In this document: positions 147-64,000 of the stretch, piece after piece
Numbering within the stretch: position 1 is the first letter of the stretch
Layout of the letters: each line of letters begins with the position of its first letter
Origin: a virus
Taxonomy: Duplodnaviria; Caudoviricetes
Length of the DNA stretch: 64,000 nt
Virus record (IMG/VR): IMGVR_UViG_2910441116_000002
Location: 12,489 to 76,488 of that record
Strand: one strand, 5' to 3'
Position numbers and translations under genes: made by a program
Notes under the pieces: generated by a model
The model's database searches: none
Seen by the model: the letters and a program-made list of their open reading frames with translations, nothing else
Told to the model about the DNA's origin: nothing

Positions 147-1121
147 CTACACTCTTTTTTCTAAATGCTTCAATGGTGAAAACTTCATGTGATTGTAGTT
201 CACTTCTTCACTAAACAAGTTCACATATTTCTTTGTCATGCTCATGTCCGTATGTCCCAATAATCTTTGTAAGGTAAATGGGTCTGCTCCCCCAACTACA
301 CACAAACGAGCAAAAGTATGTCTAAAGGTGTGGCAGGAACAACGCACTCCTTTTAAATTTGCTTTTTTACCATAGTAGGTAATTCTAGATTGAAGTTGTC
401 TCTTTGTTAAGGGAGTTTCGTCAATGGTTATAAACAAAGAATCACATTCACATACCCCTCTTATTGAAAGCCAACGTTCTAACATTTTAGCCATTGTATT
501 TTGGAAAGGCAAGATTCTTTGATAGTAAGTTTTTGTATGCTTTACGTGGATTACGCCTTCTTTTAGCTTTATGTCATGTATTGAAAGGTTAGAGAGTTCA
601 TTGGCTCTCATACCTGTTTCAAGCAATAAAAGCATAATCGTGTAATCCCTAATTCCAATGAACGTATGCAGGTCAGGTTGCCGAAACAAATGATTTAATT
701 GTTCAGTTGTAAAGGTCTCCACAATTGTTTCCCTGTCCTTGAGAAGTTTTACAGATTTCATTGGATTGTTCTTTATGTAATTCTCACGGTGTAAATAATT
801 AAAGTAAGATCGTATGGCACGTAATCTTGTGTTTATTGTGACTGTCTTTATACCTTGTTTCTTCATATAAAGTATCACATTGTTTTTTATAATGTTAGTG
901 GTAATTTTTGAAGGAGAGGTATCAATCTCTTGTTCCCTCAAATGTTTGTAATAAACATTGAGTTCATTACGGTAATAATTAATGGTGTACGGTCTCAAGT
1001 TTCTAATGTTGCAATCATCTAAAAACAACTCAAGTGAATCCTGAAAGCTAATTTGAATAAGTGAAAAATCATTGTGGAGAGTGGCAAGTTCTTGTGGGGA
1101 CAATTGCAAGTTCCTTCTCAA
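147..1121 (-). CDS. int: Tyrosine integrase of a second, tandemly integrated element
   Basis: TGMRANEL, HTFRHTFA, LLGH, KYV catalytic motifs; starts about 130 bp downstream of tRNA-Leu; AT-rich. Confidence 0.92.
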   Translation of the reverse strand: MRRNLQLSPQELATLHNDFSLIQISFQDSLELFLDDCNIRNLRPYTINYYRNELNVYYKHLREQEIDTSPSKITTNIIKNNVILYMKKQGIKTVTINTRLRAIRSYFNYLHRENYIKNNPMKSVKLLKDRETIVETFTTEQLNHLFRQPDLHTFIGIRDYTIMLLLLETGMRANELSNLSIHDIKLKEGVIHVKHTKTYYQRILPFQNTMAKMLERWLSIRGVCECDSLFITIDETPLTKRQLQSRITYYGKKANLKGVRCSCHTFRHTFARLCVVGGADPFTLQRLLGHTDMSMTKKYVNLFSEEVNYNHMKFSPLKHLEKRV

Positions 1122-1195
1122 TGTTATTCCTCCTTAGAATTACATACGAGTTGGAACATACGATTATTTGAGGGAAAATCGTGTGAAGTAAACAC

Positions 1196-1227
1196 AAAAA
1201 AGACTCCCTCAACGCATTGAGGAAGCC
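1196..1227 (-). terminator. Intrinsic terminator after tRNA-Leu
   Basis: Minus strand GGCTTCCTCAA-TGCG-TTGAGGGAGTC followed by a T run. Confidence 0.75.
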
Positions 1228-1248
1228 CATTGTTTCAACACTTATTAG

Positions 1249-1330
1249 TACCGGTGGTCGGGTTCGAACCGACACTCCCGAAGGAACACGATTTTGAGTC
1301 GTGCGCGTCTGCCAATTCCGCCACACCGGC
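1249..1330 (-). tRNA. tRNA-Leu (anticodon CAA), CCA not encoded; probable attachment site
   Basis: GCCGGTG/CACCGGT acceptor stem, GGCGGAATTGGCAGACGC D arm, CACGA-CTCAAAA-TCGTG anticodon arm, long variable arm, GGTTCGAACC T arm. Confidence 0.95.
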
Positions 1331-1477
1331 TCTGTGCCGCGCTTGAACGCGGTTAGGGGTGCGTATTACCCCGATAGGGTTCGTACGACCCGTCTGTTTC
1401 TGCGATAATCGCACCGTTATGTCATACGATTTAGTCGTTGCGCGCCTGAATCGTGCGCACCTAAACGGACAATTAAT

Positions 1478-1507
1478 AATATAGCACGCGTGATAGATTT
1501 ACGTCAA
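1478..1507 (-). promoter_or_regulatory. SigA-type promoter reading into tRNA-Leu
   Basis: TTGACG-N18-TATATT with a TGn extended -10. Confidence 0.65.
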
Positions 1508-2302
1508 GCCTTCGAGCCAATCGTACGTAATTAATTTCGCCTCGCCTTTTTCCTCCGCGTCCGTCCAGGCGTTTCTCCGCGCAACTTCCGCCGCCGCTTT
1601 TTCGAAAGCAACGTACAGGTACCGTTCAATGTTCCGGATTAATCCGCGCTTTGCCTTGAACATGACCGCGTTGAACGCCTCGACGTATGGCGCGGAGTCG
1701 TTTTCGATTAGCGTTGATGGCGCGACCTTGCGTTTTGCTTTAAGGAGAAGGCCGTAATATTTATATAATACGTCGGAGTTCACGAAGGGTGACATCGCCT
1801 TATAGACCGCGGAAGGCAACGCCGACCGCAACGCATTGTTAGGAACGCGCGGAGTATCTTTGTTTATAGTATGTTTTAATAGCTTAATAGAATCCGATGG
1901 TTCGTTTTCGTTTCGTCCGTCTTCCGCTTTACTCTCCGTAAGCTTTTCGCCATCTGCCCGAGTGGACACGCTCGACTGGTCACTTGGAAGAATCACGATT
2001 ATATTAGCGCCTTTTCCTCCGTTAACTTTCCGTACAGTTGCGTGCTTTTTTACGATGCCTAACCGTTCGAGCTTCGTAAGTACGCGCCGAGCAGTCTTAA
2101 CGGACTTTCCGATGGCTTTCCCGATAGAGTCCGCTTTGAGGTGCGCGGCGCCTGCGTATTTAACGGCGTATCTTGCGATGAGTTTAAGCGTCGTGCGATC
2201 CGTTTCGTTGAGGTCGTATGTATGATTACGGATATGTTCGTAGATTGCCCGGTTGAGCTGCGCGGTATTTTCGAACGTGCTGAATTCGTTAAGATAGTGC
2301 AT
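1499..2302 (-). CDS. Winged-HTH protein (Rep-like) of the terminal module
   Basis: HTH segment SIGKAIGKSVKTARRVLTKLERLGIV; C-terminal YDWL. Confidence 0.7.
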   Translation of the reverse strand: MHYLNEFSTFENTAQLNRAIYEHIRNHTYDLNETDRTTLKLIARYAVKYAGAAHLKADSIGKAIGKSVKTARRVLTKLERLGIVKKHATVRKVNGGKGANIIVILPSDQSSVSTRADGEKLTESKAEDGRNENEPSDSIKLLKHTINKDTPRVPNNALRSALPSAVYKAMSPFVNSDVLYKYYGLLLKAKRKVAPSTLIENDSAPYVEAFNAVMFKAKRGLIRNIERYLYVAFEKAAAEVARRNAWTDAEEKGEAKLITYDWLEGLT

Positions 2303-2333
2303 AGTTTTCGCTCCCTTTTCGCAATTCTCGCTA

Positions 2334-2434
2334 TTACGTAAATTCGAAATTGCGTAATCTATACTACGAGTTTAAATTACGAAATTACGTAAGTCAATGA
2401 AAAACTTTACGCGATTACGAAATTTTAGTATAAT
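2334..2434. promoter_or_regulatory. Divergent SigA promoters overlapped by four TTACG-N6-CGTAA-like operators
   Basis: Plus TTTACG-N17-TATAAT (2406-2434); minus TTGACT-N17-TAAACT (2397-2369); operators at 2334, 2342, 2377 and 2407. Confidence 0.7.
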
Positions 2435-2468
2435 CTACGTAAGATAAGAATATAGGGAGGCGTTATAA

Positions 2469-2678
2469 ATGAGGCTATATTTAAAGGTGGATAAAGTTTT
2501 AAAAGCGAGGGGTATGACGCAAAAAGAATTGGCCGACCGAACAGGTGTCCGATCAGCCGCAATTAACGAAATGTGTTCGAACTATCGCACGGCCATTAAC
2601 CGTGATTACGTCGGAAAGATTGCGGAGGCTTTGCAAATTACGGATGTCTCGGAGTTATTGGAGTTCCGTGAAGATTAA
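2469..2678 (+). CDS. XRE-family HTH regulator
   Basis: MTQKELADRTGVRSAAINEM...IAEALQITDVSELL; GGGAGG RBS. Confidence 0.88.
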   Translation: MRLYLKVDKVLKARGMTQKELADRTGVRSAAINEMCSNYRTAINRDYVGKIAEALQITDVSELLEFRED

Positions 2679-3118
2679 ATCGCCTGCCCGACGCCGGCAA
2701 GTAAATCGATGAATAGAGGCGACATTTGTACGAGGACGTATCCGATGCCCGCCTTCATCAATAAACCGTAACCTTTGTCGTTCAGTCCGATCATGACTAA
2801 CAACGCGCCACCCGTCACCATGACGCCGGCAATCGGAAGCGACAACGCAATCATGACGTCAATGATCGGATCAAACGCGTTCGTTATCTGCGTACGGATT
2901 GCGTCACCGACCGCGTTCGCTTGGATTACGTCGGGGCTTCCCGAAACCTCCGCGAATGACCGAGAAGGCAACGCCAGCGCAACCGGTGTTAGTACGCCTA
3001 GTTTTGCGGCTTTTTTGACGCGGGAATTAACGTTTTTGTTCGCTTTCGGAGCCGTAACCCCTCCGCTCATGAAATCCTTGAAATCGACCGTTTTCGTGCG
3101 GTTAAATAGTGCGCCCAT
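2675..3118 (-). CDS. Two-TM membrane protein, VirB2/TrbC pilin-like
   Basis: Basic N-terminus, SFA cleavage-like site, two hydrophobic helices separated by NDKG, ending AGIGYVLVQMSP. Confidence 0.55.
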   Translation of the reverse strand: MGALFNRTKTVDFKDFMSGGVTAPKANKNVNSRVKKAAKLGVLTPVALALPSRSFAEVSGSPDVIQANAVGDAIRTQITNAFDPIIDVMIALSLPIAGVMVTGGALLVMIGLNDKGYGLLMKAGIGYVLVQMSPLFIDLLAGVGQAI

Positions 3119-3133
3119 AGTTCCGCGCCTCCT

Positions 3134-3718
3134 TCATAATATTTCGTTCAGCGTGTAAACCTGACCGGGAAGTCCGTTCATTAACCGGTTGAGTGTCGCT
3201 CGCCTACTTTCCAATTCCGTCACCCATATGAGAAAGAACGGCTCTTGTGAGTTCCGCAACATTTTCGCGTACTTCTCGATTTTCCGGCTGTTCGTCGCCA
3301 TCGGCTGAGATACGTCGACTTCTACGAATACCTTCGCGTCCTTATACTTGAACATGGCGTCAGCTACGATCGACTCCTTTCCGATAACCATTTTAACTTC
3401 GTTTTCCCAGGACTTCGGGCGTTTCCAGTAAATATAAAGCTGATTACGGATAAGGAAGTGCTGAACGTTCGGCGTTTTCTTGCGCGTAGTCGTGCACTGT
3501 ACACGTTCCCTTCCGGCTTTGTTGAGCGTATAAACCTTCTCCCACCCGTTTCGAAACGAGTTTAAATACGCTGACATATCGTTTAAAATTCGGTTGGCGT
3601 TTCGGTCACCTTTTAGCCGGTGCATCGTTTGAATTTGTGACCGCGTAAGATAATCATACCTTTTCAACGATAAGAGGATGTTTTCGATCCTCTGTTCTTT
3701 CGCTGCGCTTTTGTTCAA
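3134..3718 (-). CDS. Replication-relaxation family protein
   Basis: YLTRSQIQ wHTH, HFLIRN, ADA...FVEVD...KIEKY PD-(D/E)XK-like motifs. Confidence 0.8.
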   Translation of the reverse strand: MNKSAAKEQRIENILLSLKRYDYLTRSQIQTMHRLKGDRNANRILNDMSAYLNSFRNGWEKVYTLNKAGRERVQCTTTRKKTPNVQHFLIRNQLYIYWKRPKSWENEVKMVIGKESIVADAMFKYKDAKVFVEVDVSQPMATNSRKIEKYAKMLRNSQEPFFLIWVTELESRRATLNRLMNGLPGQVYTLNEIL

Positions 3719-4934
3719 ACCGGTCGCCTCCTTTTGCCTTTACGTTGATGTGCGGTTTAACTTGGCGCTCGACTTCCTTATTCGTAATATATGGAGTTTG
3801 GATAATTACATTTTTCACGCGTCGATAAATCGCCCGCCCTTCGATTTCCGGCAAATCTTCCGCGCCACCTTCGTCAAGCACCGCCCGGCTCGCCGCGTTC
3901 GTCTCGAGTACGAAACAAACGCGTCCTCCGATGTTTTGGCGTACCTGCGAGGGTAGCGTTTCATTCGTCGGGTACTGGGTTGCGTAGATTAAACGTACTC
4001 CCGCACCCCTGCCTTGTCGGGATAAATCCGTAATGATTTCCATAGCTTCGTCGTTGTCGGAGAGATCGGCCGCCTCGTCGATGATTACGAAATGGCGGTC
4101 GGGAATACCCGCCTCTATAACGTCCTCATGTCCGTTCTGAACGAGTTTGCGGAGTACGGAGGACATACGTCGCTGAATCGCTTTTAATTCGTCTAACGCC
4201 TCCTCAGGCCCCGTTGCGTATCCGGAAACTTGCGTCATGTTCCGGAACCGCTGAAACGCCGTTCCGCCTTTTAAGTCGATTAACGTAAAGCTGACGTCGG
4301 TCGGCTTTTGGCGTACGAGGGACGTAATCAGCAGCTTCAAAAATTGCGACTTGCCGAAGCCGGTCGCGCCAGCTACGATCATGTGCGGCCTCTTCTCAAA
4401 GTTGTGGTAAACGTCCGAACTCCTCGACTTGCCGACAATCACCCGCCAACCTTTCGTTAAATAAGCGTCACTCCACGGCAGGTTATCCGTCAAAGGTTCG
4501 TCGTAAACTTTAATACATAGCATACCGTCGAAGGTAACGTCGATCTCCTTCCGCTTGGTGCGTTGTTCCGTGATTATCTTGCGTATTTGTTCGAGAGCCG
4601 GCCGAAGCCCTTCTGCCCACTCGACGGTTAAGAAATCACGCGGATCAAATTCGAAATACTTACCACGTACGTTCAAGCCGTCCTCGATGACCGCTTTATT
4701 TTCGATGATTTTTCGTGAAGATACGCCGAGTGGAAGCTGAACGACGTACTCTACGCCACCTTCGATTTTTCGTTTGCGGTGAATACGGGCGTTTGCATCG
4801 CGTACATTCCATCCGGCGTTTGCGAAAATCCGCTGAATCTTTTCGCCTTCGTTCGTTGCTCCTCCGTTTGTTTTCAGATAAGAATAACCGGCTACTCCCG
4901 CCATTAAAACAGTCGTTCCGATTTCTACGAACAT
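3654..4934 (-). CDS. FtsK/SpoIIIE-family DNA translocase ATPase
   Basis: HMIVAGATGFGKS, LIDLKGG, IIDEAA, GRGAGVRLIYATQYP; N-terminal membrane anchor. Confidence 0.92.
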   Translation of the reverse strand: MFVEIGTTVLMAGVAGYSYLKTNGGATNEGEKIQRIFANAGWNVRDANARIHRKRKIEGGVEYVVQLPLGVSSRKIIENKAVIEDGLNVRGKYFEFDPRDFLTVEWAEGLRPALEQIRKIITEQRTKRKEIDVTFDGMLCIKVYDEPLTDNLPWSDAYLTKGWRVIVGKSRSSDVYHNFEKRPHMIVAGATGFGKSQFLKLLITSLVRQKPTDVSFTLIDLKGGTAFQRFRNMTQVSGYATGPEEALDELKAIQRRMSSVLRKLVQNGHEDVIEAGIPDRHFVIIDEAADLSDNDEAMEIITDLSRQGRGAGVRLIYATQYPTNETLPSQVRQNIGGRVCFVLETNAASRAVLDEGGAEDLPEIEGRAIYRRVKNVIIQTPYITNKEVERQVKPHINVKAKGGDRFEQKRSERTEDRKHPLIVEKV

Positions 4935-43045: not shown

Positions 43046-44104
43046 TCACTCCGCCTCCTCACGTAATTGTTCGATCTGCTCAACCGCGTCAACTATCTGC
43101 GCCTTTTTGAAGCCGGGCATGTTCGACTTAAGTGCCGCCTTTTTCTTACGTTGTAACTCCGCTAGTTCATCGTCGGAAAGAGACGTCGCGCACGCCTGCT
43201 TGAAGTTGTTGAACGTCCAATTGTCGAGGTCTAACGGTAATGGGTCGTTCGCGTCAATCGACGTCTGCACCTTCGTAAAGTAGTCGAATAGCTCGCGTTT
43301 ATCAGCCTCCGTAATATTCACGCCAAACGCCCGGATGTCCGGATTCTTTGCGTAGGTGTCATCGTCGTAAACCCACGTCTTTTTCGCGGCGTTGACGTAT
43401 AGGATGATGAATTTTGACACGTTATACATTTCCGCATAAGCTACGCATTGTTTGACGTGCTTCTCCTCCGGTTGGCGCATCGAATAATGGGACGTCTTAG
43501 CTGCGGAGGTCTGCTTCGACTTTATCTCGAGGCCGACGCGTAAAAGCTCGCCTGTTTCCGGATCGGCGTACTCGAGGATTCCGTCGCATGTTCCGTATAG
43601 ATAGAAGGATTTGCCGTTATGCTCGACGCGGTGATTCTTTTTGGCGAAGTCCTCAAATTGCGGAAATCCTTCCGGCGTCCGTTCAAACTTAAACGGCGTC
43701 GGCTTTCCGCGCTTCTTTTCGTAGTTTCTCTCCATTGCGAGTATATCCCGCTGAATCACGCTGCCGATTGCCGTCCCGATCGCCGCCCATCGCGTTTGGT
43801 GCGGCTGCTTATCGAAATTGTCCTTCTTCGCGCGCTTGGCTTTCATATAAAGCATACGCGGACAGGCGTTGGCGCTCGACGGAGAAAAGTACGGGCGTTT
43901 CGGAAATAGCTTCGGGGCGTTCGCGTACCACCGGTTAATCTGCGTGTCGAGTTCGTTGTCCCAGACTTCGCTAAGCGCGTGAAAGTCGTCGAGGTAATCA
44001 AGGAATACGTCCGCAATTTCTTGGGCTTTACTGTTATTAATTTCATCAATTCCAGTTTGAAGTGTGTTTACAGCTGATTCTTCTTCTCGTTTTTTATTCG
44101 TCAA
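43046..44104 (-). CDS. PD-(D/E)XK exonuclease (Cas4/RecB-like)
   Basis: FSPSSANACPR, GTCDGI, LEIKSK, QCVAY. Confidence 0.75.
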   Translation of the reverse strand: MTNKKREEESAVNTLQTGIDEINNSKAQEIADVFLDYLDDFHALSEVWDNELDTQINRWYANAPKLFPKRPYFSPSSANACPRMLYMKAKRAKKDNFDKQPHQTRWAAIGTAIGSVIQRDILAMERNYEKKRGKPTPFKFERTPEGFPQFEDFAKKNHRVEHNGKSFYLYGTCDGILEYADPETGELLRVGLEIKSKQTSAAKTSHYSMRQPEEKHVKQCVAYAEMYNVSKFIILYVNAAKKTWVYDDDTYAKNPDIRAFGVNITEADKRELFDYFTKVQTSIDANDPLPLDLDNWTFNNFKQACATSLSDDELAELQRKKKAALKSNMPGFKKAQIVDAVEQIEQLREEAE

Positions 44105-44590
44105 TTAATCGTCTCCTTTTATCTCGTTTTTGAACGCGAACTCTCCGTACAACTCTTCTGCTTTCTGGTTATAGGCGCTTGCTGCTTCTTCTCTGTTTTC
44201 AAAACAACCTATAATAATCTCTTTTCCGTTTTTATATATTCTCGACCGCCATTTCTGACCACATCGGCTGACTCCTTTGTAACCAGATGTGTTGTTTGTT
44301 TTAACTCCGGTGTTGAACATGTTTTTACTTCTGTCTGTAAATCTGAGGTTTTTCTTTCGGTTATCTAACCCGCTCCTGTTTACGTGGTCTACTTCTGTGT
44401 TTTCCTTGGCTTTCATAATCTCTCGGTGCATATAAACTTTTTTATACTGTCTGTATCCTACCTTCTTCCGTCTGCAAACGTATCCGCACCCAGTGTCCTC
44501 GAAGTACCAGCTATTTTCGTTTAACCAATCAAAATCCTCATCGTCCACTAAGGTAAACTTTCCTTTAGTTAACGGTAGTCTTTTTGTCAT
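44105..44590 (-). CDS. HNH-AP2 homing endonuclease
   Basis: LVDDEDF, MHREIM, VDHVN..GLDNRKKNLR, SGYKGV, AYN..A..LYGEFA. Confidence 0.92.
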   Translation of the reverse strand: MTKRLPLTKGKFTLVDDEDFDWLNENSWYFEDTGCGYVCRRKKVGYRQYKKVYMHREIMKAKENTEVDHVNRSGLDNRKKNLRFTDRSKNMFNTGVKTNNTSGYKGVSRCGQKWRSRIYKNGKEIIIGCFENREEAASAYNQKAEELYGEFAFKNEIKGDD

Positions 44591-50826: not shown

Positions 50827-51483
50827 TCAGCCGCACAGATAATCGCGGTATGAGTCGCCGAATTGACTGCTATCGTAATTTTTAGCGAGGTTGCGTAGCT
50901 TGCGCTTGATTCTACTGCGCTCAACCTTTACGACCTCCGCGATTGCCGTCGCGTTGAAGTCGCGTTTATAGGTTGTGTCGCTCAAGATTTCTCTTACTAT
51001 TAACGCGGTGGAGGAATCTGCATTTCGTACGAGGGAGTCTAGCAGTTGCCGCTGCTCGGCTTCCTTTTTTATTACGTAATTTTCCGGTGGTGCTTCGGGT
51101 TCTGCATCCGTATGTTGCTGGTGGATCCGGTCGAACGTTGCCGCGTCCGATTCGTCATCATTTCCGTATAGTAACGTTTCCTTATCACGTCGTTTCTTCG
51201 TCTTTCCAGCGATGCGTTTTCGTCCGTTTACGAGTATGACCGAGAAGTACGGTTCGAAATCGCCTTTCTCCGGTTCGTACGACGCGATTGCTTCGAGGAG
51301 CTTATCGTCCTGTAACGCGGTTATTTCGAGCTCGTCCACGTTGAACGATCGGGCGAGTTGGTACTCCTTGCCGAAGTACTTTTCCGAGATAGTCTGATAG
51401 ATTTCGTTGAAGTCCGAATCGCTTCGGCTCTCCTTGTACCTCATAACTAACTCATTTAATTGTTTGTGTTTACTCACGTTCAT
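50827..51483 (-). CDS. Phage sigma-70-like factor
   Basis: Region-2-like LV.RYK...FNEIY, LLEAIASYEPEKGDFEPYF; C-terminal HTH ATAIAEVVKVERSRIKRKL. Confidence 0.72.
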   Translation of the reverse strand: MNVSKHKQLNELVMRYKESRSDSDFNEIYQTISEKYFGKEYQLARSFNVDELEITALQDDKLLEAIASYEPEKGDFEPYFSVILVNGRKRIAGKTKKRRDKETLLYGNDDESDAATFDRIHQQHTDAEPEAPPENYVIKKEAEQRQLLDSLVRNADSSTALIVREILSDTTYKRDFNATAIAEVVKVERSRIKRKLRNLAKNYDSSQFGDSYRDYLCG

Positions 51484-51498
51484 TCCCCTTTCTGTTCT

Positions 51499-51680
51499 CT
51501 TAAAGTGTTATAGGGTGAGTTTGGAATAAGTGTGCTAGATTGTGTAAATTCTTTTTTTGTAATTTTAAATTCACCCGTGAGTGAACTGTTGAATCTACTA
51601 TATCAGACGTTTTCTAAAATAAAGGGGTGCTTTAACGTTTTCTCAAAATAAATTTTCCTTAAATTTCATACGTTGGAAAA
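51499..51680 (-). promoter_or_regulatory. Control region of the sigma gene
   Basis: TGnTATAGT -10 (51597-51605) with poor -35; ACGTTTTCT(C)AAAATAAA direct repeats (51607, 51635); TTCAC-N6-GTGAA (51570); AGCACAC-N16-CTATAAC motif (51499-51536). Confidence 0.6.
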
Positions 51681-51687
51681 AATGAGT

Positions 51688-51720
51688 AAAAAAAAAGCCC
51701 CGACCGGTTAAGTCAGGGTT
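51688..51720 (-). terminator. Terminator after aimP
   Basis: CCCTGAC-TTAACCG-GTCGGGG-CTTTTTTTTT. Confidence 0.75.
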
Positions 51721-51744
51721 CGACCGTACTTATTTAGTTTTAAA

Positions 51745-51897
51745 TCAACCGCCACCGCCACCGCGCCCAGGATCCTCCTGCCCTGCGATTGTAACTTCAC
51801 CTGATGTGACTTGCTTCCCTTGTTCTAAAGTAGACCCTGCGTAAGCACTCAGGATCACTGCGATTGATAAGAATGTAATTGTTAGTAAGCTTTTCAT
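51745..51897 (-). CDS. aimP: Arbitrium-type signalling pro-peptide (AimP-like), 50 aa, not in ORF track
   Basis: AGGAG RBS just after aimR; MKSLLTITFLSIAVILSAYAG signal peptide; C-terminus VTIAGQEDPGRGGGGG. Confidence 0.85.
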   Translation of the reverse strand: MKSLLTITFLSIAVILSAYAGSTLEQGKQVTSGEVTIAGQEDPGRGGGGG

Positions 51898-51911
51898 TTT
51901 TAACATCTCCT

Positions 51912-53045
51912 CTAATTTTGGTTAAGTAGGCTTTTAACGGCCTCTTTAAATTGTTCGTGTTTCAGCAACTCTCTGTACGGAAGTTGCGCGTAAAACATTT
52001 CGTTTAACTCTATAAATTTCCCTAGAGCTTTAAAGTGAATCATAGGGTCATTTTTAGCCACCCCTTCGTAGTAAATTCTGAAAGGTGTTTCCTCTAATTC
52101 ATCTAACATTTCTAGGGCTTTATCTGTCTCACCTCTTTTCGCCGCCATAAAAGCAAGTTCGGACTCTTGCGTTGTTCCGTTACCCTCCGTTAAATTAAGA
52201 CCCCAGTAAGTTTGGATAAAACGCTTAGTTCCACCCTCCCGTATATCCGCTACTTCTTGGCAACCTATTTTCCGAAGGATTTTTATGCTTTTACTCATGT
52301 ATTTTAGGGACTTATTCGCGTCCTCGAATATATATGAAGTCCCTATAATGTTATAGGAATCCGCTACAAACTTTGTGCCAATTTTACTAGAAATAACTTG
52401 CTTCGCATAAGATCTTGCAGTTTTTGGATCATTTCTAGAAAAAAGACTATCTATAGACCTAAGCTCTAATACCCTTATATTCAAACTTGATTTAAAATAA
52501 CTATCAGGAACCTCGGCCAGTTTTTCCTCGATCGTTTCGATTAAACGGGTAACTATTGATGATTCATATATATTATGATGGACGTTAGCTTCGATTATAT
52601 CAAGCAACACTTTTAATTCGACGTCTTTAATTTCATGAGATAAAATATAAATCCTTTGCAAAATGCTTTTGTAACTATCTGTCATCAGTTGAAAATTAAT
52701 GATTAACCTATAAACTTTGCACCAATCTAATAATTTATTTTCTCTCTCGCACCGATTTATAAGACTTTCTATCTCATCAAAACACCTGTTTGTTGAAAGG
52801 TATTCTAGGGAATACTTTATATTTTGGGAATTCCTTGACTCAGCACAAAATAATTTTACGAAATGTTCATCTCCATCAAACAGGGAATCCTTAGCATTCA
52901 TTACAGTTGGAAATTTTAGTTCTCTTCTATAATCTATGTAATTCGTGATAGTCCCACCGCTACACCCAATTAACTCAGCAGCGTATTTTTGAGTATAGCC
53001 TAACGTTTGTAAATGGTTTCCGAAAAAATCTCGAGCGCTAGTCAT
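51912..53045 (-). CDS. aimR: AimR-family HTH-TPR peptide receptor (RRNPP superfamily)
   Basis: 377 aa; N-terminal HTH; NIKYSLEYL, W.KVY, SYNIIGTSY, ESELAF helical repeats; followed by a secreted-peptide gene. Confidence 0.87.
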   Translation of the reverse strand: MTSARDFFGNHLQTLGYTQKYAAELIGCSGGTITNYIDYRRELKFPTVMNAKDSLFDGDEHFVKLFCAESRNSQNIKYSLEYLSTNRCFDEIESLINRCERENKLLDWCKVYRLIINFQLMTDSYKSILQRIYILSHEIKDVELKVLLDIIEANVHHNIYESSIVTRLIETIEEKLAEVPDSYFKSSLNIRVLELRSIDSLFSRNDPKTARSYAKQVISSKIGTKFVADSYNIIGTSYIFEDANKSLKYMSKSIKILRKIGCQEVADIREGGTKRFIQTYWGLNLTEGNGTTQESELAFMAAKRGETDKALEMLDELEETPFRIYYEGVAKNDPMIHFKALGKFIELNEMFYAQLPYRELLKHEQFKEAVKSLLNQN

Positions 53046-53061
53046 GTTTTTCCTCCTTTTG

Positions 53062-53123
53062 TTGATTTATCGACCGGATTAGGTTATAGTTAAATTGTAA
53101 ACGATATGTTTACTATTGTAAAT
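53062..53123. promoter_or_regulatory. Overlapping opposed promoters for aimR and xre with palindrome GTAAAC-N5-GTTTAC
   Basis: Plus TTGATT-N17-TATAGT; minus TTTACA-N17-TACAAT; palindrome at 53097-53113. Confidence 0.6.
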
Positions 53124-53149
53124 ACTTAATTTCCCGGGAGGAATATTTT

Positions 53150-53365
53150 ATGCAGGAATTCTCGATCGATTATTCTCCATTAATGCAAACCATGTACAGA
53201 AAGGGTGTTAATCTTAGTGACTTACGCGAAGAATTGCAGATAAGTTCCAAGACAACAGCTAAATTTAAGAAAAAAGAACCTATTAGTTTATTGGTAATTG
53301 GGAGGATTTGCGCATATTTAAACGTGAGCATAGAAAAAGTTGTTAATTTTGAGTTTCACGAATAG
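53150..53365 (+). CDS. Cro/C1-type HTH regulator
   Basis: IDYSPL..LREELQISSKTTAK..ISL.VI.RIC.YLNVSIEKVV. Confidence 0.85.
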   Translation: MQEFSIDYSPLMQTMYRKGVNLSDLREELQISSKTTAKFKKKEPISLLVIGRICAYLNVSIEKVVNFEFHE

Positions 53366-53456: not shown

Positions 53457-53669
53457 ATGGCGGTAAAATTCGGAAGATGCCGCCTTCGCGAAATATTGGC
53501 CGCAAACAACATGCGCCAGTATCAACTCGCCGAAAACTCCTCGAAATCCCAATCGGAAATAAGCGACTATATATCGTCCAGGAAACATCTATCGTACTTA
53601 ACCGCGGTGGAGTTTGCGCAAATAATCGGTTGCCACGCCGAAGATTTTTACGATTGGGAATGGGAGTAG
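53457..53669 (+). CDS. XRE-family HTH regulator
   Basis: GRCRLREIL..MRQYQLAE...ISDY...IGCHAEDFYDW. Confidence 0.85.
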   Translation: MAVKFGRCRLREILAANNMRQYQLAENSSKSQSEISDYISSRKHLSYLTAVEFAQIIGCHAEDFYDWEWE

Positions 53670-53864: not shown

Positions 53865-54839
53865 TCATACTCCGAATGTTTTTAGGGGAAAACTGCGCCT
53901 TTCTACGCGCTTTAACTCCGCCAACCCTACGCCATCTACCCACGCCTCGTTCGCGTCCTTGTAGGGCGCAGGAATTCGTACGTCAGCCACCTGCGCATAT
54001 CCACGCAAACCCTCCGCCAACTGTTCCCGTAACTTCTCGCCCGCCGCGTCATTGTCGGTGCACAGCACGTATCTCTCCGCCGGTGCTTTCCGTAACAACG
54101 CGAGCTGCCGATCGCTCACCGTTGAGCTTCCGACCGCAATCGCGGCAACACCCGCCGACATCCAGGAGAGCGCGTCGATCTCTGCCTCCGTTATAACAAC
54201 CTCCGAAAGCTCCCGTTGATATACGATATGCAGTCCGAAGACTACGTTCCGGATAGGCTCCGCGCCTTTTACATACCAGAATCGTTTGTCGTCGCCTGTG
54301 CTCCGATATTTAGCGTTAGCAAGCGAATCATCAACGTGCCTCCACGGCAGAATAACCGCCTGCTTCTCCCCGTCATATCCTACGCCTAAATAGCGCTGGA
54401 CTTTCGGCGTGATTCCTCGGTTGGCCAAGTACGCGGATGACTCCGGCGTAAAAAACTCGGGCAAAACCGCCTTTTCACGTACGACCTTCATCCGCAATTG
54501 CGGGAGTTTTAATTCCGTTTCCTCCCCGCCGAACTCAAACGGAAGATATTGCGCGAGGAGGTAATCGGCCGTTTCTTCGTACGACTCACCGCGCAAGTAC
54601 GCGAGTAACTGCACGAAGCCACCTTTCGCATACTCCGGATCATCTGCGCCTCGGTCGCCCCAAGTGCCTGCGGATTCCCCGTCGAGGTTTACGTAGAAGG
54701 ACGGTAAATGATCGGGACGGAACGGCGATTGTGCGCGGAGTTGGTCGTCCGCCCATTGTGCGCGGCCCCATTCGTAGTTTTCGAGTTCTGTGCGGATATC
54801 GACGTCAACTTGGCGGCCGGCTACGTTAATTGTCGGCAT
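53865..54839 (-). CDS. DNA primase (TOPRIM)
   Basis: SPFRPD..PSF, YLANRGI, ITEAEIDALS, TDNDAAGE, YKDANE. Confidence 0.9.
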   Translation of the reverse strand: MPTINVAGRQVDVDIRTELENYEWGRAQWADDQLRAQSPFRPDHLPSFYVNLDGESAGTWGDRGADDPEYAKGGFVQLLAYLRGESYEETADYLLAQYLPFEFGGEETELKLPQLRMKVVREKAVLPEFFTPESSAYLANRGITPKVQRYLGVGYDGEKQAVILPWRHVDDSLANAKYRSTGDDKRFWYVKGAEPIRNVVFGLHIVYQRELSEVVITEAEIDALSWMSAGVAAIAVGSSTVSDRQLALLRKAPAERYVLCTDNDAAGEKLREQLAEGLRGYAQVADVRIPAPYKDANEAWVDGVGLAELKRVERRSFPLKTFGV

Positions 54840-55326
54840 GTTTAACCCTCCTTAAAATCTGCAGTAAACTCCTTACATAGTAGTCCTTTATATCATGATT
54901 TCTAATCTGTTTATCTATATGCGCATTTCCTGTACGGTTTCCAATAACCAACCCTCTTGCGTATCTCCAAGGGTGCTCCTCTTTAACAATATTCTCGATC
55001 TTTCTGTGATTCATATGTCCATATAACTTCCACACAAGTTTCAATATATCTTTTGTTCTTTCGTCAGGGAATTTTCTAACTTCACTGGACGTTAATGGTT
55101 TCTGTATGCTGTCAAACCCATAACTTCTATAGTAGTCGAATAACTCTTTGCAATATGGCCCGTGTATTGCTGCGTAAAATTTTTCTTTTACCAAAGGTTT
55201 GTCAGTTACAGCTAAATGATAAGCATGTGCGTAGAATACGAGCTTTTGCATTTTTAGATTACTAATACGTTTTTGCGAGTCTGACATATCGAGGAAAATT
55301 TGAGAAACCTCCACAGCGCTTAGTAT
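54826..55326 (-). CDS. Panacea (DUF4065/SocA-like) antitoxin-domain protein
   Basis: ISNLKMQKLVFYAH, F.A..HGP, VW..YG, E.PW, I.N.DIKDYY. Confidence 0.82.
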   Translation of the reverse strand: MLSAVEVSQIFLDMSDSQKRISNLKMQKLVFYAHAYHLAVTDKPLVKEKFYAAIHGPYCKELFDYYRSYGFDSIQKPLTSSEVRKFPDERTKDILKLVWKLYGHMNHRKIENIVKEEHPWRYARGLVIGNRTGNAHIDKQIRNHDIKDYYVRSLLQILRRVKHADN

Positions 55327-63025: not shown

Positions 63026-64000
63026 TCATATAAGTTTTTCCAACGGACTAAATCGCTTGTGGCTTTCCGCAACATCATTCCCGTAAAGGTTGACGTAATT
63101 TCTTACCATCTCGATACTCGCATGTCCGAGCACGTACTGCAGCGCAAATATATCCGCGCCGTTCTGCACCGCTAATTTAGCGAACGTATGCCGGAAAGTG
63201 TGTGGACTGCACCGGACATTCTTAATATCCGCCATCCGCCCGTACTTCCGGATTCTCGATTGCAGCTGACGGACACTTAACGCTTGGTTGTCGATGTTGA
63301 CGAATAACGCCTCTAAGTCGATCTCGCCGCGTACGGAAAGATACCGCTTAAGCTGGCGTTTCATCGTCGTTTGAATCGGAACCAATCGCTCCTTATAGCC
63401 CTTCCCGTTAATCCGGATTTGCGAATCTTCCCACGTGATGTCCTTTACGCGAATATCCGTTAGCTCCCGTGCGCGAACGCCCGTTTCGATTAATAACGAA
63501 AGGATCGTATAATCACGCAATCCCGTAAACGTAGCGAGGTCGGGTTGGCGGAGGATGTGTCGTAATTGCTCCCGGCTGAACGTCTCGATGACCGTCCGCT
63601 TTTGCTTGACGAGTCGTAGCCTTTCCGCCGGATTCTCCGAAATCAACGCCTCTCGATGGAGGAAATTAAAGAACGATCGAATTGCGCGGAGCCGAGTATT
63701 AATCGACGCCTCTTTCCGACCGAGTACCTCCATCATATAGTAGATTACGTTTTCCCGGATAATCTGCAGCGTAATTTTATCGGGCGTCGTCGGGAGGTCT
63801 TGCGCTTCCAACTGCCCGCGAAAAGCGATTAGCTCATTCCGGTAATATTTAATCGTATGTTCCGATAGATTCCGTATTTTACAGTCGCGTAAAAAGGCGT
63901 GCAGGCAGACTTCGAAGTCCTCGGGGGTTACGCCCCTCACCGCTTGTCCTGCGCTCTCTGCGCCGCTTAAATCGCCTATTACGTTACTTCTCCGTGCCAT
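63026..64000 (-). CDS. int: Prophage tyrosine integrase
   Basis: TGVRAREL, GKG, SPHTFRHTFA, LGH, NYV. Confidence 0.93.
   Translation of the reverse strand: MARRSNVIGDLSGAESAGQAVRGVTPEDFEVCLHAFLRDCKIRNLSEHTIKYYRNELIAFRGQLEAQDLPTTPDKITLQIIRENVIYYMMEVLGRKEASINTRLRAIRSFFNFLHREALISENPAERLRLVKQKRTVIETFSREQLRHILRQPDLATFTGLRDYTILSLLIETGVRARELTDIRVKDITWEDSQIRINGKGYKERLVPIQTTMKRQLKRYLSVRGEIDLEALFVNIDNQALSVRQLQSRIRKYGRMADIKNVRCSPHTFRHTFAKLAVQNGADIFALQYVLGHASIEMVRNYVNLYGNDVAESHKRFSPLEKLI

What the first reader, a model, noticed from the sequence alone, without database searches (positions are those of the whole stretch)
51745..53045. Hidden arbitrium-type communication system with an unusual Gly-tailed peptide (...QEDPGRGGGGG)
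Seen: a 377-aa HTH plus helical-repeat protein is followed 14 bp later by an RBS-led 50-codon ORF missing from the ORF track (MKSLLTITFLSIAVILSAYAGSTLEQGKQVTSGEVTIAGQEDPGRGGGGG), then a terminator. The island is much more AT-rich than the rest of the phage. Established: aimR-aimP of phi3T and SPbeta has this layout (RRNPP receptor plus secreted pro-peptide with a C-terminal mature signal), and some arbitrium clades use DPG/Gly-rich peptides. Inference: this phage counts infections using a peptide such as GQEDPGRGGGGG or a trimmed DPGRGG form. I do not recognise this exact peptide, so it may be a new specificity group in a non-SPbeta phage.
Basis: partly seen in the sequence, partly recalled or inferred. 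Interest (0 to 1): 0.88.

Follow-up and report, generated by a model that had tools for sequence, protein, structure and literature searches.

The report
Phage arbitrium signal pair, DPGRGGGGG peptide
A dormant virus in a salt-loving Bacillus relative carries a genuine receptor and secreted-peptide pair of the known "arbitrium" virus-to-virus signalling kind, with a peptide ending not seen elsewhere, so it is a correct but fairly ordinary find.

Summary
The 377-aa ORF (51912-53045, minus strand) is an AimR receptor. It passes Pfam PF22871 (166.9 bits, cut-off 26.7) and NCBIfam NF038310 (202.2 bits, cut-off 70), and its model matches solved AimR structures. Fourteen nt downstream, behind a GAGGAG ribosome-binding site, lies a 50-codon ORF (51745-51897) with a signal-peptide-like N-terminus. 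It ends QEDPGRGGGGG and is followed by a hairpin plus T-run.

A DPG core with a Gly-rich tail is common next to AimR homologues: 21 of 33 candidate peptides, including DPGGGGW in phage LY4. So the glycine tail is not unusual. The Arg after DPG and the exact peptide were found nowhere else. The receptor sits in a small clade of 6 rows.

The host is Halobacillus-like. The roughly 57-kb prophage resembles B. subtilis phages 268TH002 and phi18-2, which keep a different AimR cassette in the same slot, in front of a sigma-factor-like gene. That gene is the likely output. This scan noted the same wiring earlier on other DNA.

Verdict: a new member of a known kind. Function is untested.

The parts
51912..53045 (-). 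aimR: AimR-family peptide receptor and transcription regulator, 377 aa, with an N-terminal HTH and a TPR-like domain
   Evidence: Pfam PF22871 E 7.8e-49. NCBIfam NF038310 202.2 bits, cut-off 70. phrog_1728 E 1.8e-62. phmmer to PDB AimR chains, E 1.2e-9. AF2 model pLDDT 77.7; the 14 best Foldseek rows are all AimR, TMq 0.60-0.74.
51745..51897 (-). aimP: 50-codon pro-peptide gene (stop included). N-terminus is signal-peptide-like (MK + hydrophobic core + AYA|G). C-terminus is ...QEDPGRGGGGG.
   Evidence: ORF and ribosome-binding site. Hydropathy peaks at 2.73 over residues 7-15 and falls after residue 17. DPG core shared with 21 of 33 candidate peptides beside AimR homologues. A 50-aa product is on record as P0007.
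51688..51718 (-). Intrinsic-terminator-like hairpin plus a run of 9 T after aimP
   Evidence: 8 pairs, 5 G-C. (-13.3 kcal/mol, z -1.34). The relatives L002 and L003 also have a G+C hairpin plus T-run after their peptide gene.
51484..51687 (-). Non-coding spacer (32.6% GC over 51484-51744). Holds a 13-nt direct repeat at 51607-51619 and 51635-51647, start-to-start spacing 28: a candidate AimR site.
   Evidence: None of the promoter-like sites that one search lists on the minus strand lies in this spacer. No Rfam family reaches its threshold. The role as an operator is inferred.
50827..51483 (-). Sigma-70-family-like gene, 218 aa as listed. The probable true start is the GTG at 51477 (216 aa, P0005). 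Likely output of the module.
   Evidence: Pfam Sigma70_r2 E 0.034. The L003 homologue hits TIGR02937 at E 8.2e-5, below cut-off. All listed Foldseek rows are sigma/RNA polymerase entries, but only 1 has E <= 0.001 and TMq is 0.24-0.34. Homologues follow aimP in L002, L003, L169 and phi18-2/268TH002.
53046..53149 (.). Divergent promoter region between aimR and the HTH_26 gene (29.8% GC), with an inverted repeat AATTGTAAAC/GTTTACTATT
   Evidence: Promoter-like sites: minus strand 53122..53094 (10 of 12 matches) and plus strand 53062..53090. Inverted repeat at 53093-53117. GC.
53150..53365 (+). Small XRE-type regulator (HTH_26, 71 aa), divergent from aimR and part of the AT-rich island
   Evidence: Pfam PF13443 E 9.2e-8. 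A similar small divergent gene sits upstream of aimR in L002 and L003 (likeness judged by eye; no alignment was run). GC 33.8%.
53457..53669 (+). Second small XRE-type regulator (HTH_3, 70 aa). With the gene above, the only two family-supported plus-strand genes found in this prophage: candidate repressor/Cro-like pair.
   Evidence: Pfam PF01381 E 8.9e-8. Strand map. 268TH002 and phi18-2 have the same pair of small HTH genes beside AimR.

Best explanation
This is a functional-looking arbitrium-type module of a temperate siphovirus-like prophage. AimR is a DNA-binding receptor (HTH plus TPR-like domain). AimP would be exported through Sec, cut after the signal peptide (predicted AYA|G) and trimmed outside the cell. 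The product would be a short peptide that keeps the translated C-terminus and most likely starts at or just before the Asp, that is (E)DPGRGGGGG. It would be re-imported by an oligopeptide permease and bind AimR.

By analogy with phi3T, peptide-free AimR lets transcription pass the terminator after aimP, or activates a promoter in the spacer, so that the next gene is expressed. Here that gene is a sigma-factor-like protein at the head of the long minus-strand block of DNA polymerase, nucleotide-metabolism, packaging, head, tail and lysis genes. A high peptide level would switch AimR off and favour lysogeny.

Shown here: the family of the receptor, the gene layout, the motif kinship of the peptide, and the conserved synteny. 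Inferred: secretion, the peptide's ends, binding, the DNA site, and the effect on lysis versus lysogeny.
For: - Receptor: Pfam, NCBIfam and PHROG hits over cut-off; sequence and fold matches to solved AimR.
- Ligand anchors: in the phmmer alignment to chain 7q0n_A, the residues that PMC9232636 (passages) says anchor the peptide ends align with like residues that are invariant in the 4-sequence clade alignment. R228 (C-terminal carboxylate) aligns with K225, and E300 (N-terminal amine) with E296. D360, which contacts the peptide's Arg, aligns with E349.
- Peptide gene: ribosome-binding site, position and signal-like N-terminus. DPG core in 21 of 33 candidate peptides next to AimR homologues and in 3 further loci (L164, L167, L169). 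Repeated units in relatives mark the active part: DPGDGGIG twice in L011, and DPG[DG]GPIGG twice in L002 and L003.
- Layout: the order aimP, terminator, next gene matches phi3T, where AimR is an antiterminator (PMC10769878, abstract and section 6).
- Output gene: a sigma-like gene follows aimP in L002, L003, L169, 268TH002/007 and phi18-2.
- Context: prophage with integrase, replication, packaging, head, tail and lysis genes. The host has 4 SBP_bac_5 (OppA/DppA-type) genes.
Against: - No experimental or expression data exist.
- SignalP was not available, so the signal peptide rests on hydropathy and an AXA motif read by eye.
- The terminator hairpin is not stronger than shuffles (z -1.34).
- The mature peptide's N-terminus is unknown. 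From D to the end, related peptides run 5 to 15 residues.
- Other peptide-contact residues of clade-2 AimR are not kept: N202/I198, N206/S203, N273/T273, Q299/S295, and N329 falls in a deletion.
- No small aimX-like ORF and no opposite-strand aimC/aimL pair lie downstream. So the output differs from the architectures that the 2025 preprint describes for about 79% of systems (about 75% extended, about 4% SPbeta-like), and the sigma link is inference.
- The sigma-like call is weak: family hits are below cut-off, the model has pLDDT 67.9, and only 1 Foldseek row has E <= 0.001.
- The peptides beside the three closest AimR homologues (P0002-P0004) could not be seen.
Confidence: 0.8

Rival explanations
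1. The pair is a real peptide-sensing system, but it does not set lysis versus lysogeny through the downstream gene. AimR would instead act on the divergent promoter region (53046-53149) that it shares with the small HTH_26/HTH_3 regulators, or would govern some other phage trait.
For: The aimR and HTH_26 promoters are back to back and carry an inverted repeat. HTH_26 belongs to the same AT-rich island as aimR, and a similar small divergent gene accompanies aimR in L002 and L003 (by eye). The two HTH genes are the only family-supported opposite-strand genes found in the prophage.
Against: In phi3T, the characterised system whose text I read, AimR acts on the region downstream of aimP (PMC10769878; 10.1101/2025.11.23.689978). 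The order aimP, terminator, spacer with repeat, sigma-like gene is conserved across several AimR clades. The inverted repeat upstream is equally well explained as the operator of the HTH_26/HTH_3 proteins.
Confidence: 0.1
2. AimR is an orphan or eavesdropping receptor, and the 50-codon ORF is an unrelated small secreted protein or a chance ORF.
For: Many AimR homologues lack a recognisable propeptide gene: 8 of the 41 loci gave no candidate, and PMC9765709 (passages) reports that only 11% of AimR genes outside mobile elements have one. No homologue of this peptide was found by sequence.
Against: The ORF starts 14 nt after aimR with a good ribosome-binding site. It has the AimP size and a signal-like N-terminus, and ends in the DPG-x-G core that recurs beside AimR homologues in both halves of the tree. 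AimP genes diverge too fast for sequence searches to be informative. In prophages 65% of AimR genes have a propeptide candidate (PMC9765709).
Confidence: 0.04
3. The module is a decaying remnant. The AT-rich cassette was acquired from a lower-GC phage and no longer functions in this host.
For: The GC content is about 13 points lower than the rest of the prophage. Relatives are very rare: 3 non-self homologues in the word-indexed protein search.
Against: Both ORFs are intact with good ribosome-binding sites, and there are no frameshifts or internal stops. The clamp residues are conserved. The prophage encodes a complete set of phage functions.
Confidence: 0.05

Closest known systems
Arbitrium of phi3T/SPbeta (AimR-AimP-AimX, clade 2; PDB 5ZVV, 6HP3, 6S7I)
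   Same: Same receptor family and fold. Same order: aimR, aimP, terminator, regulated gene (PMC10769878). The residues that clamp the two peptide ends are kept as K225 and E296.
   Different: About 24% identity over 80% of the protein. The peptide is not a xxxRGA hexamer. Most side-chain contact residues differ. The next gene is a 216-218-aa sigma-like protein, not the small aimX. The phage backbone is unrelated to SPbeta (TerL nearest 268TH002).
B. cereus-group phage arbitrium systems (LY4, Waukesha92, B83, PHBA67-T; 'extended' aimX-aimC-aimL architecture)
   Same: AimR plus a Sec-type AimP ending in a DPG or EPG core with a Gly-rich tail: DPGGGGW, EPGGGGW, DPGGSVG, DPGGM.
   Different: AimR is 22-24% identical and lies in another part of the tree. 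Those phages have a small ORF and an opposite-strand repressor gene after aimP. The window does not. None of those peptides has Arg after DPG.
B. subtilis phages 268TH002/268TH007 and phi18-2 (64-68 kb temperate siphoviruses)
   Same: Closest sequenced phage backbone: TerL 64.9-65.7% identical. Same local order: primase, two small opposite-strand HTH genes, AimR, a short unannotated signal-peptide ORF, then a sigma-factor gene. The sigma-like proteins are homologous (hhalign probability 97.9). The FtsK/replication-relaxation module and two tyrosine recombinases also occur there (PMC9476937).
   Different: The AimR in that slot is only 22% identical and groups with the Wbeta-like z1a receptor. 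Its peptide ends ...SDPGKEVAINAIGG. No megablast similarity to window 40000-64000. The hosts differ: B. subtilis versus a Halobacillus-like genus.
IMG/VR contigs L002 and L003 and metagenome proteins P0002-P0004
   Same: Same AimR clade (support 96 to 100). L002 and L003 share the whole layout: divergent small HTH gene, aimR, aimP, terminator, sigma-like gene.
   Different: 31-55% identity. The L002 and L003 pro-peptides carry two copies of DPG[DG]GPIGG and a short C-terminal extension instead of one DPGRGGGGG at the very end. The peptides of P0002-P0004 are unknown.

Membership tests
Arbitrium (AimR-AimP) communication systems | Receptor of the AimR family: N-terminal HTH plus TPR-like peptide-binding domain | tested here: met
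   PF22871 166.9 bits, cut-off 26.7. NF038310 202.2 bits, cut-off 70, covering residues 10-360. The 14 best Foldseek rows are all AimR, TMq 0.60-0.74, with PlcR next at E 9.1e-4.
Arbitrium (AimR-AimP) communication systems | Short ORF directly downstream, on the same strand, with a secretion signal | tested here: met
   14-nt gap, GAGGAG ribosome-binding site, 50 codons. Hydrophobic core at residues 4-17 and AYA|G (motif read by eye). SignalP was not available.
Arbitrium (AimR-AimP) communication systems | C-terminal mature peptide with a clade-typical motif | tested here: inconclusive
   The DPG-x-G core is shared with 21 of 33 candidate peptides and with published phage AimPs. The true ends of the mature peptide and this clade's own motif are unknown: only 3 peptides of the 6-row clade were seen.
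Arbitrium (AimR-AimP) communication systems | Receptor residues that clamp the free N- and C-termini of a short peptide (E300 and R228 in AimR Katmira/SPbeta) | tested here: met
   These align with E296 and K225. Both are invariant in alignment A1. Residue roles come from PMC9232636 passages. The mapping was done by hand from the printed alignment.
Arbitrium (AimR-AimP) communication systems | Terminator and AimR site between aimP and the regulated gene | tested here: inconclusive
   A terminator-like hairpin plus T9 is present, as in L002 and L003. A spaced 13-nt direct repeat lies in the spacer. No binding data exist, and the repeat is not conserved in relatives.
Arbitrium (AimR-AimP) communication systems | Carried by a temperate phage or other mobile element | tested here: met
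   Integrase, DnaC/DnaB/primase, DNA polymerase, TerL, portal, major head, tape measure and endolysin genes surround it.
Arbitrium (AimR-AimP) communication systems | Peptide binds the receptor and shifts the lysis-lysogeny outcome | not testable with these tools
No sequencing run was listed.
'Extended' arbitrium architecture (aimX-aimC-aimL; Kabel et al. 2025 preprint) | Small aimX ORF, then an opposite-strand small HTH repressor (aimC) and a cro-like aimL downstream of aimP | tested here: not met
   The only ORF in the spacer is 24 codons with a GTG start and no ribosome-binding site. The next gene is a same-strand 216-218-aa sigma-like protein. The two small HTH genes lie upstream of aimR instead. 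The definition comes from sections 5 and 14 of the preprint.
SPbeta-like arbitrium (clade 2) | xxxRGA-type hexapeptide, AimR of clade 2, SPbeta-type phage with the sro/yop operon downstream | tested here: not met
   The peptide ends DPGRGGGGG. AimR is 24% identical to phi3T's and sits in a different starred clade. TerL is nearest 268TH002. The sro/yop genes were not searched for directly.
Sigma-70 family (for the downstream 218-aa protein) | Regions 2 and 4 recognisable by profile or fold | tested here: inconclusive
   Sigma70_r2 E 0.034. TIGR02937 E 8.2e-5, 22.3 bits, cut-off 42.9, for the L003 homologue only. All listed Foldseek rows are sigma/RNA polymerase entries, but with low TM and 1 row at E <= 0.001. 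The 268TH002 homologue is annotated 'RNA polymerase sigma factor' by its depositors.

The most novel reading that the evidence does not exclude
In a lineage of 55-68-kb temperate phages spread over several Bacillales genera, one fixed genome slot lies between the small HTH regulators and a phage sigma-like factor. That slot would hold interchangeable, horizontally swapped AT-rich aimR-aimP cassettes from at least three deep AimR clades, each with its own peptide 'word'. AimR would gate the sigma-like factor directly, by antitermination at the aimP terminator. The peptide signal would then decide whether the phage's own sigma factor, and with it the lytic programme, is switched on. I found this output route in no paper. 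The window's cassette would add a 9-10-residue Arg-containing oligo-Gly peptide as a new specificity in a halophile host.
Probability: 0.4. Interest if true: 0.6.

Novelty: new member of a known kind. Interest (0 to 1): 0.35.

Why it matters
Arbitrium systems are known in the thousands: 9300 AimR homologues in about 5500 Bacillus genomes according to the 2025 preprint I read. Another pair is therefore not surprising in itself. What this one adds:

- A peptide ending (DPG-Arg-Gly5) and an AimR subclade that are very sparsely sampled.
- A host outside Bacillus proper, in a Halobacillus-like genus.
- One more natural case in which related phage backbones carry unrelated aimR-aimP cassettes in the same slot, in front of a sigma-like gene.

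That series (this prophage, L002/L003, L169, 268TH002/phi18-2) is a ready-made comparison set. It could be used to ask how peptide specificity evolves and whether arbitrium can act through a phage sigma factor instead of aimX.

Tried and rejected
Contigs of the closest homologues. Pattern scans with alignment A1 found no relative in genome contigs (115 stretches matched, 0 confirmed) or in metagenome contigs (278 stretches, 0 confirmed).

Searches with the peptide itself. The word-indexed search had 1 candidate, the peptide itself. The full HMMER search of 1.84 billion representatives gave 3 hits: the peptide itself plus proteins of 602 and 1072 aa, which I take to be spurious. Short ORFs are often not called, so this is weak evidence of rarity.

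Motif scan. None of the 118 has an AimR relative by tblastn at E <= 1, and the 9 near-C-terminal cases look like chance.

Expression. No RNA holder was listed; no run of any kind was listed.

Rfam. Two matches far below their gathering scores; rejected.

Conserved AimR operator. The window's 13-nt direct repeat has no counterpart in L002, L003, L162 or L169, each of which has different spaced repeats. I left it as a candidate only.

CI-like repressor elsewhere in the early region. 0 of 9 small early ORFs had a Pfam hit. The tenth protein in that call is a SocA/Panacea protein.

Tree. The careful tree did not finish. The quick tree was used: 45 rows, SH-aLRT support only. Left out were L163 (no AimR), the self copies L001, L004 and L024, and L164-L172 (fetched later).

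Papers. Stokar-Avihail 2019 is not held and supplements are closed. I therefore cannot say whether this clade or peptide is in their tables or in Supplementary File 1 of the 2025 preprint. 'Not in print' rests on four checks:
- search for 'DPGRGG': 0 papers;
- search for arbitrium+AimP+DPG: 0 papers;
- search for arbitrium+AimR+'sigma factor': 8 papers, judged from titles and abstract starts only;
- 'sigma' occurs 0 times in the main text of the preprint.
Full report
WHAT IS THERE

On the minus strand, a 377-aa ORF (51912-53045) is followed after 14 nt by a short ORF. The sequence places GAGGAG 9 nt before the ATG at 51897. The alternative ATG at 51906 abuts the ribosome-binding site, and the public protein collection also holds the 50-aa form (P0007). 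The ORF ends in TGA at 51745-51747.

About 30 nt further on lies a hairpin (stem 51718..51698, 8 pairs, 5 of them G-C) followed by nine T. The hairpin's energy alone is not exceptional: -13.3 kcal/mol, z -1.34, and 22 of 200 shuffles fold as well.

The AT-rich island is real. aimR is 35.4% GC, the divergent HTH_26 gene 33.8% and the aimP-to-sigma spacer 32.6%, against 48.2% for the prophage. Only 17 of 1258 sliding windows of aimR's length are as low. The next gene downstream (48.7% GC) has the phage's normal composition.

THE RECEPTOR

The 377-aa protein passes several family tests:
- Pfam AimR PF22871: E 7.8e-49, 166.9 bits, cut-off 26.7.
- NCBIfam NF038310 'AimR family lysis-lysogeny pheromone receptor': 202.2 bits, cut-off 70, residues 10-360 on model positions 3-365 of 365.
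- phrog_1728: E 1.8e-62.
- phmmer finds five distinct AimR sequences in the PDB, E 1.2e-9 to 3.2e-6.
- An AlphaFold2 model from the 4-sequence alignment (pLDDT 77.7, pTM 0.71) has AimR structures as its 14 best Foldseek rows, TMq 0.60-0.74. PlcR comes next at E 9.1e-4, followed by TPR proteins and Rap.

So any current annotation pipeline would name this receptor. It is not hidden.

It is, however, a distant member of the family:
- 45 phage records match, all from Bacillus phages and all below 60% identity; the listed rows are 22-24%.
- The word-indexed search of 5.8 billion protein clusters gave only three non-self relatives, at 55, 51 and 36% identity.
- Two IMG/VR contigs carry relatives at 31-32%. 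The genome and metagenome pattern scans confirmed none.
- Whole-genome searches found nothing close. 28 of 61 relatives (G000 included) match at E <= 0.001, the best non-self at 28% identity. 8 of 401 class-sampled genomes match at E <= 1e-20. 9 of 401 order-sampled genomes match at E <= 1e-35; the best non-self score is 157 bits against 673 for self.
- In a quick maximum-likelihood tree of 45 rows, the window groups with P0002 and P0003 (support 98), then P0004 (100), then L002 and L003 (96). It lies apart from the phi3T, Wbeta/268TH002 and B. cereus-phage groups.

THE PEPTIDE

The N-terminus has the build of a Sec signal: MK, a hydrophobic core (9-residue hydropathy peaks at 2.73 over residues 7-15 and collapses after residue 17), then AYA|G. 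SignalP was not available.

The C-terminus...QEDPGRGGGGG, belongs to a widespread pattern. I extracted the best small ORF with a hydrophobic N-terminus beside each AimR homologue fetched. Of 41 loci, 33 gave a candidate, and 21 of those have DPG within the last 30 residues. Many of these loci are kin, so the count is not independent. Three further loci add DPGGGGTGGK, DPGGGGAG and DPGTGGSGG.

Isolated B. cereus-group phages show DPGGGGW (LY4), DPGGM (PHBA67-T), GPGGGMG (PfNC7401) and EPGGGGW (Waukesha92). The B83 paper gives the pro-peptide ...MADPGGSVG and assigns it to clade 7 (PMC6669507, passages). A glycine-rich tail after DPG is therefore ordinary.

Relatives that repeat the unit mark the active part. 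L011 has DPGDGGIG twice, and L002 and L003 have DPG[DG]GPIGG twice. Multi-copy AimR propeptides are reported in PMC9765709 (passages). The phi106 peptide DPPVGM also begins with Asp-Pro (preprint 10.1101/2025.11.23.689978, passage). From this I predict a mature signal that starts at or just before the Asp and keeps the translated C-terminus: (E)DPGRGGGGG.

What is particular here is the Arg after DPG. None of the other DPG peptides listed has it, and only 268TH002/phi18-2 have a Lys there. The run of five terminal Gly is also particular. The exact ending was found nowhere else:
- 0 papers;
- only itself in both protein searches;
- one copy in the host genome, which is aimP itself.

LIGAND ANCHORS

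PMC9232636 (passages) states how AimR of Katmira/SPbeta holds its hexapeptide. E300 and Q299 bind the N-terminus, R228 binds the C-terminal carboxylate, N202 and N273 bind the main chain, and N206, N329 and D360 bind the peptide's Arg.

In the phmmer alignment to chain 7q0n_A, mapped by hand, R228 aligns with K225 and E300 with E296. Both are invariant in the clade alignment. D360 aligns with E349. The others are not kept: I198, S203, T273 and S295, while N329 falls in a deletion. This fits a receptor that still clamps a free-ended short peptide but reads a different sequence.

CONTEXT

The window is G000:C45:176567-240566 of a 4.03-Mb genome with a single AimR. The host's GyrB is 87-88% identical to those of Halobacillus species, so the host is a Halobacillus-like genus. 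It has four SBP_bac_5 (OppA/DppA-type) genes.

Nearly the whole window is one prophage transcribed on the minus strand: integrase (63026-64000), methyltransferase, DnaC-like loader, DnaB-like helicase and primase (53865-54839). Then come the two family-supported plus-strand genes (HTH_3 at 53457-53669, HTH_26 at 53150-53365), followed by aimR, aimP and the sigma-like gene. After those lie DNA polymerase, ribonucleotide reductase, thymidylate synthase, dUTPase, TerL, portal, major head, tape measure, tail fibre and endolysin.

TerL is 65.7% identical to that of B. subtilis phages 268TH002/007 and 64.9% to phi18-2. Those phages show the same local order: primase, two small opposite-strand HTH genes, AimR, an unannotated 42-codon signal-peptide ORF ending ...SDPGKEVAINAIGG, then a gene that the depositors call RNA polymerase sigma factor. 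Their announcement paper (main text read) does not mention arbitrium.

Yet their AimR is only 22% identical to the window's and sits in another clade. Phage Mgbh1 has a homologue of the sigma-like gene's C-terminal half after its primase and two small opposite-strand genes, with no AimR. Together with the GC break, this suggests that aimR-aimP, probably with HTH_26, is an exchangeable cassette in a fixed slot.

THE LIKELY OUTPUT

The 218-aa protein probably starts at the GTG at 51477, which has a better-spaced ribosome-binding site and matches the 216-aa P0005. The evidence that it is a sigma factor is weak but consistent:
- Sigma70_r2, E 0.034.
- TIGR02937, E 8.2e-5, for the L003 homologue, below cut-off.
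- A modest model: pLDDT 67.9, pTM 0.45.
- Every listed Foldseek row is a sigma-factor or RNA-polymerase-holoenzyme entry, but only one has E <= 0.001 and TMq is 0.24-0.34.

Homologues follow aimP in L002 and L003, in L169 (hhalign probability 99.9) and in phi18-2 (97.9).

In phi3T a terminator lies between aimP and aimX, and AimR acts as an antiterminator of the transcript that starts at aimP (PMC10769878, abstract and section 6). The window has the same order. None of the promoter-like sites that one search lists on the minus strand lies in the 260-bp spacer, and a 13-nt direct repeat is spaced 28 bp start to start. L002 and L003 also have a hairpin plus T-run after their peptide gene.

The 2025 preprint sorts 9300 Bacillus AimR loci into SPbeta-like (about 4%), 'extended' aimX-aimC-aimL (about 75%), 'other' and a generic 'RP' class (sections 5 and 14). 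The word 'sigma' does not occur in its main text. The window fails the extended and SPbeta definitions and would fall into 'RP'. That AimR gates the sigma-like gene is my inference, at about even odds.

VERDICT

This is a genuine-looking arbitrium pair in a phage that is not SPbeta-like. Its peptide is a variant of the common DPG-plus-glycine type and carries a unique Arg. The receptor comes from a rarely sampled clade, in a halophilic Bacillales host.

It is a new member of a known kind. The glycine tail is not unusual and the genes are not hidden from annotation. Secretion, the peptide's ends, binding, the DNA site and the effect on lysogeny are all untested.

Noticed in passing
window 147-4934: After the endolysin come an FtsK/SpoIIIE-like gene (3654-4934), an HTH DNA-binding protein (1499-2302) and a second tyrosine integrase (147-1121). 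The 268TH002/007 announcement describes two tyrosine recombinases, and an FtsK plus replication-relaxation plus HTH insert present only in 268TH007. This may be a separable hitch-hiking element.
   Followed up: partly
window 54826-55314 (-): A 162-aa protein with a SocA/Panacea antitoxin-like domain (PF13274, E 3.6e-15) sits between the helicase and primase genes.
   Followed up: no
window 43046-44590 (-): An HNH endonuclease (phrog_99) and a protein matching phrog_1706, which PHROGs labels 'CRISPR/Cas system associated', lie directly after the DNA polymerase gene.
   Followed up: no
L172 (G603:C91), about 225 nt after an AimR homologue's stop: A 209-aa ORF has a signal-like N-terminus and many tandem copies of a unit like PVPYDQPTSYDQ. 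A 28-codon signal-peptide ORF also overlaps the receptor's end. This may be a multi-copy pro-peptide.
   Followed up: no
L011, L016 (G009, G014) and G041:C7:92572-99060: Tandem AimR-like paralogues. There are two in a row in the same-family genomes G009 and G014, with peptides carrying DPGDGGIG twice. G041 has six AimR-like matches within 6.5 kb.
   Followed up: no
L006, L007, L013, L023 (same-family genomes): Chromosomal AimR-like genes without a convincing peptide ORF. In L006, L007 and L023 a conserved 156-163-aa gene follows; L013's downstream ORFs were not listed. These are possible 'eavesdropper' receptors of the kind discussed in PMC9765709.
   Followed up: no
window 53093-53122: The inverted repeat AATTGTAAAC/GTTTACTATT and a direct repeat ATTGTAAA (spacing 21) overlap the -35/-10-like hexamers of the aimR promoter. 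This is a candidate operator of the divergent small HTH proteins.
   Followed up: no
L161 1877-2005 and L162 (phages 268TH002, phi18-2): A 42-codon signal-peptide ORF ending ...SDPGKEVAINAIGG overlaps the 3' end of the annotated AimR gene. It is not annotated in the two records whose feature tables I saw (268TH002, phi18-2). It is probably their aimP.
   Followed up: partly
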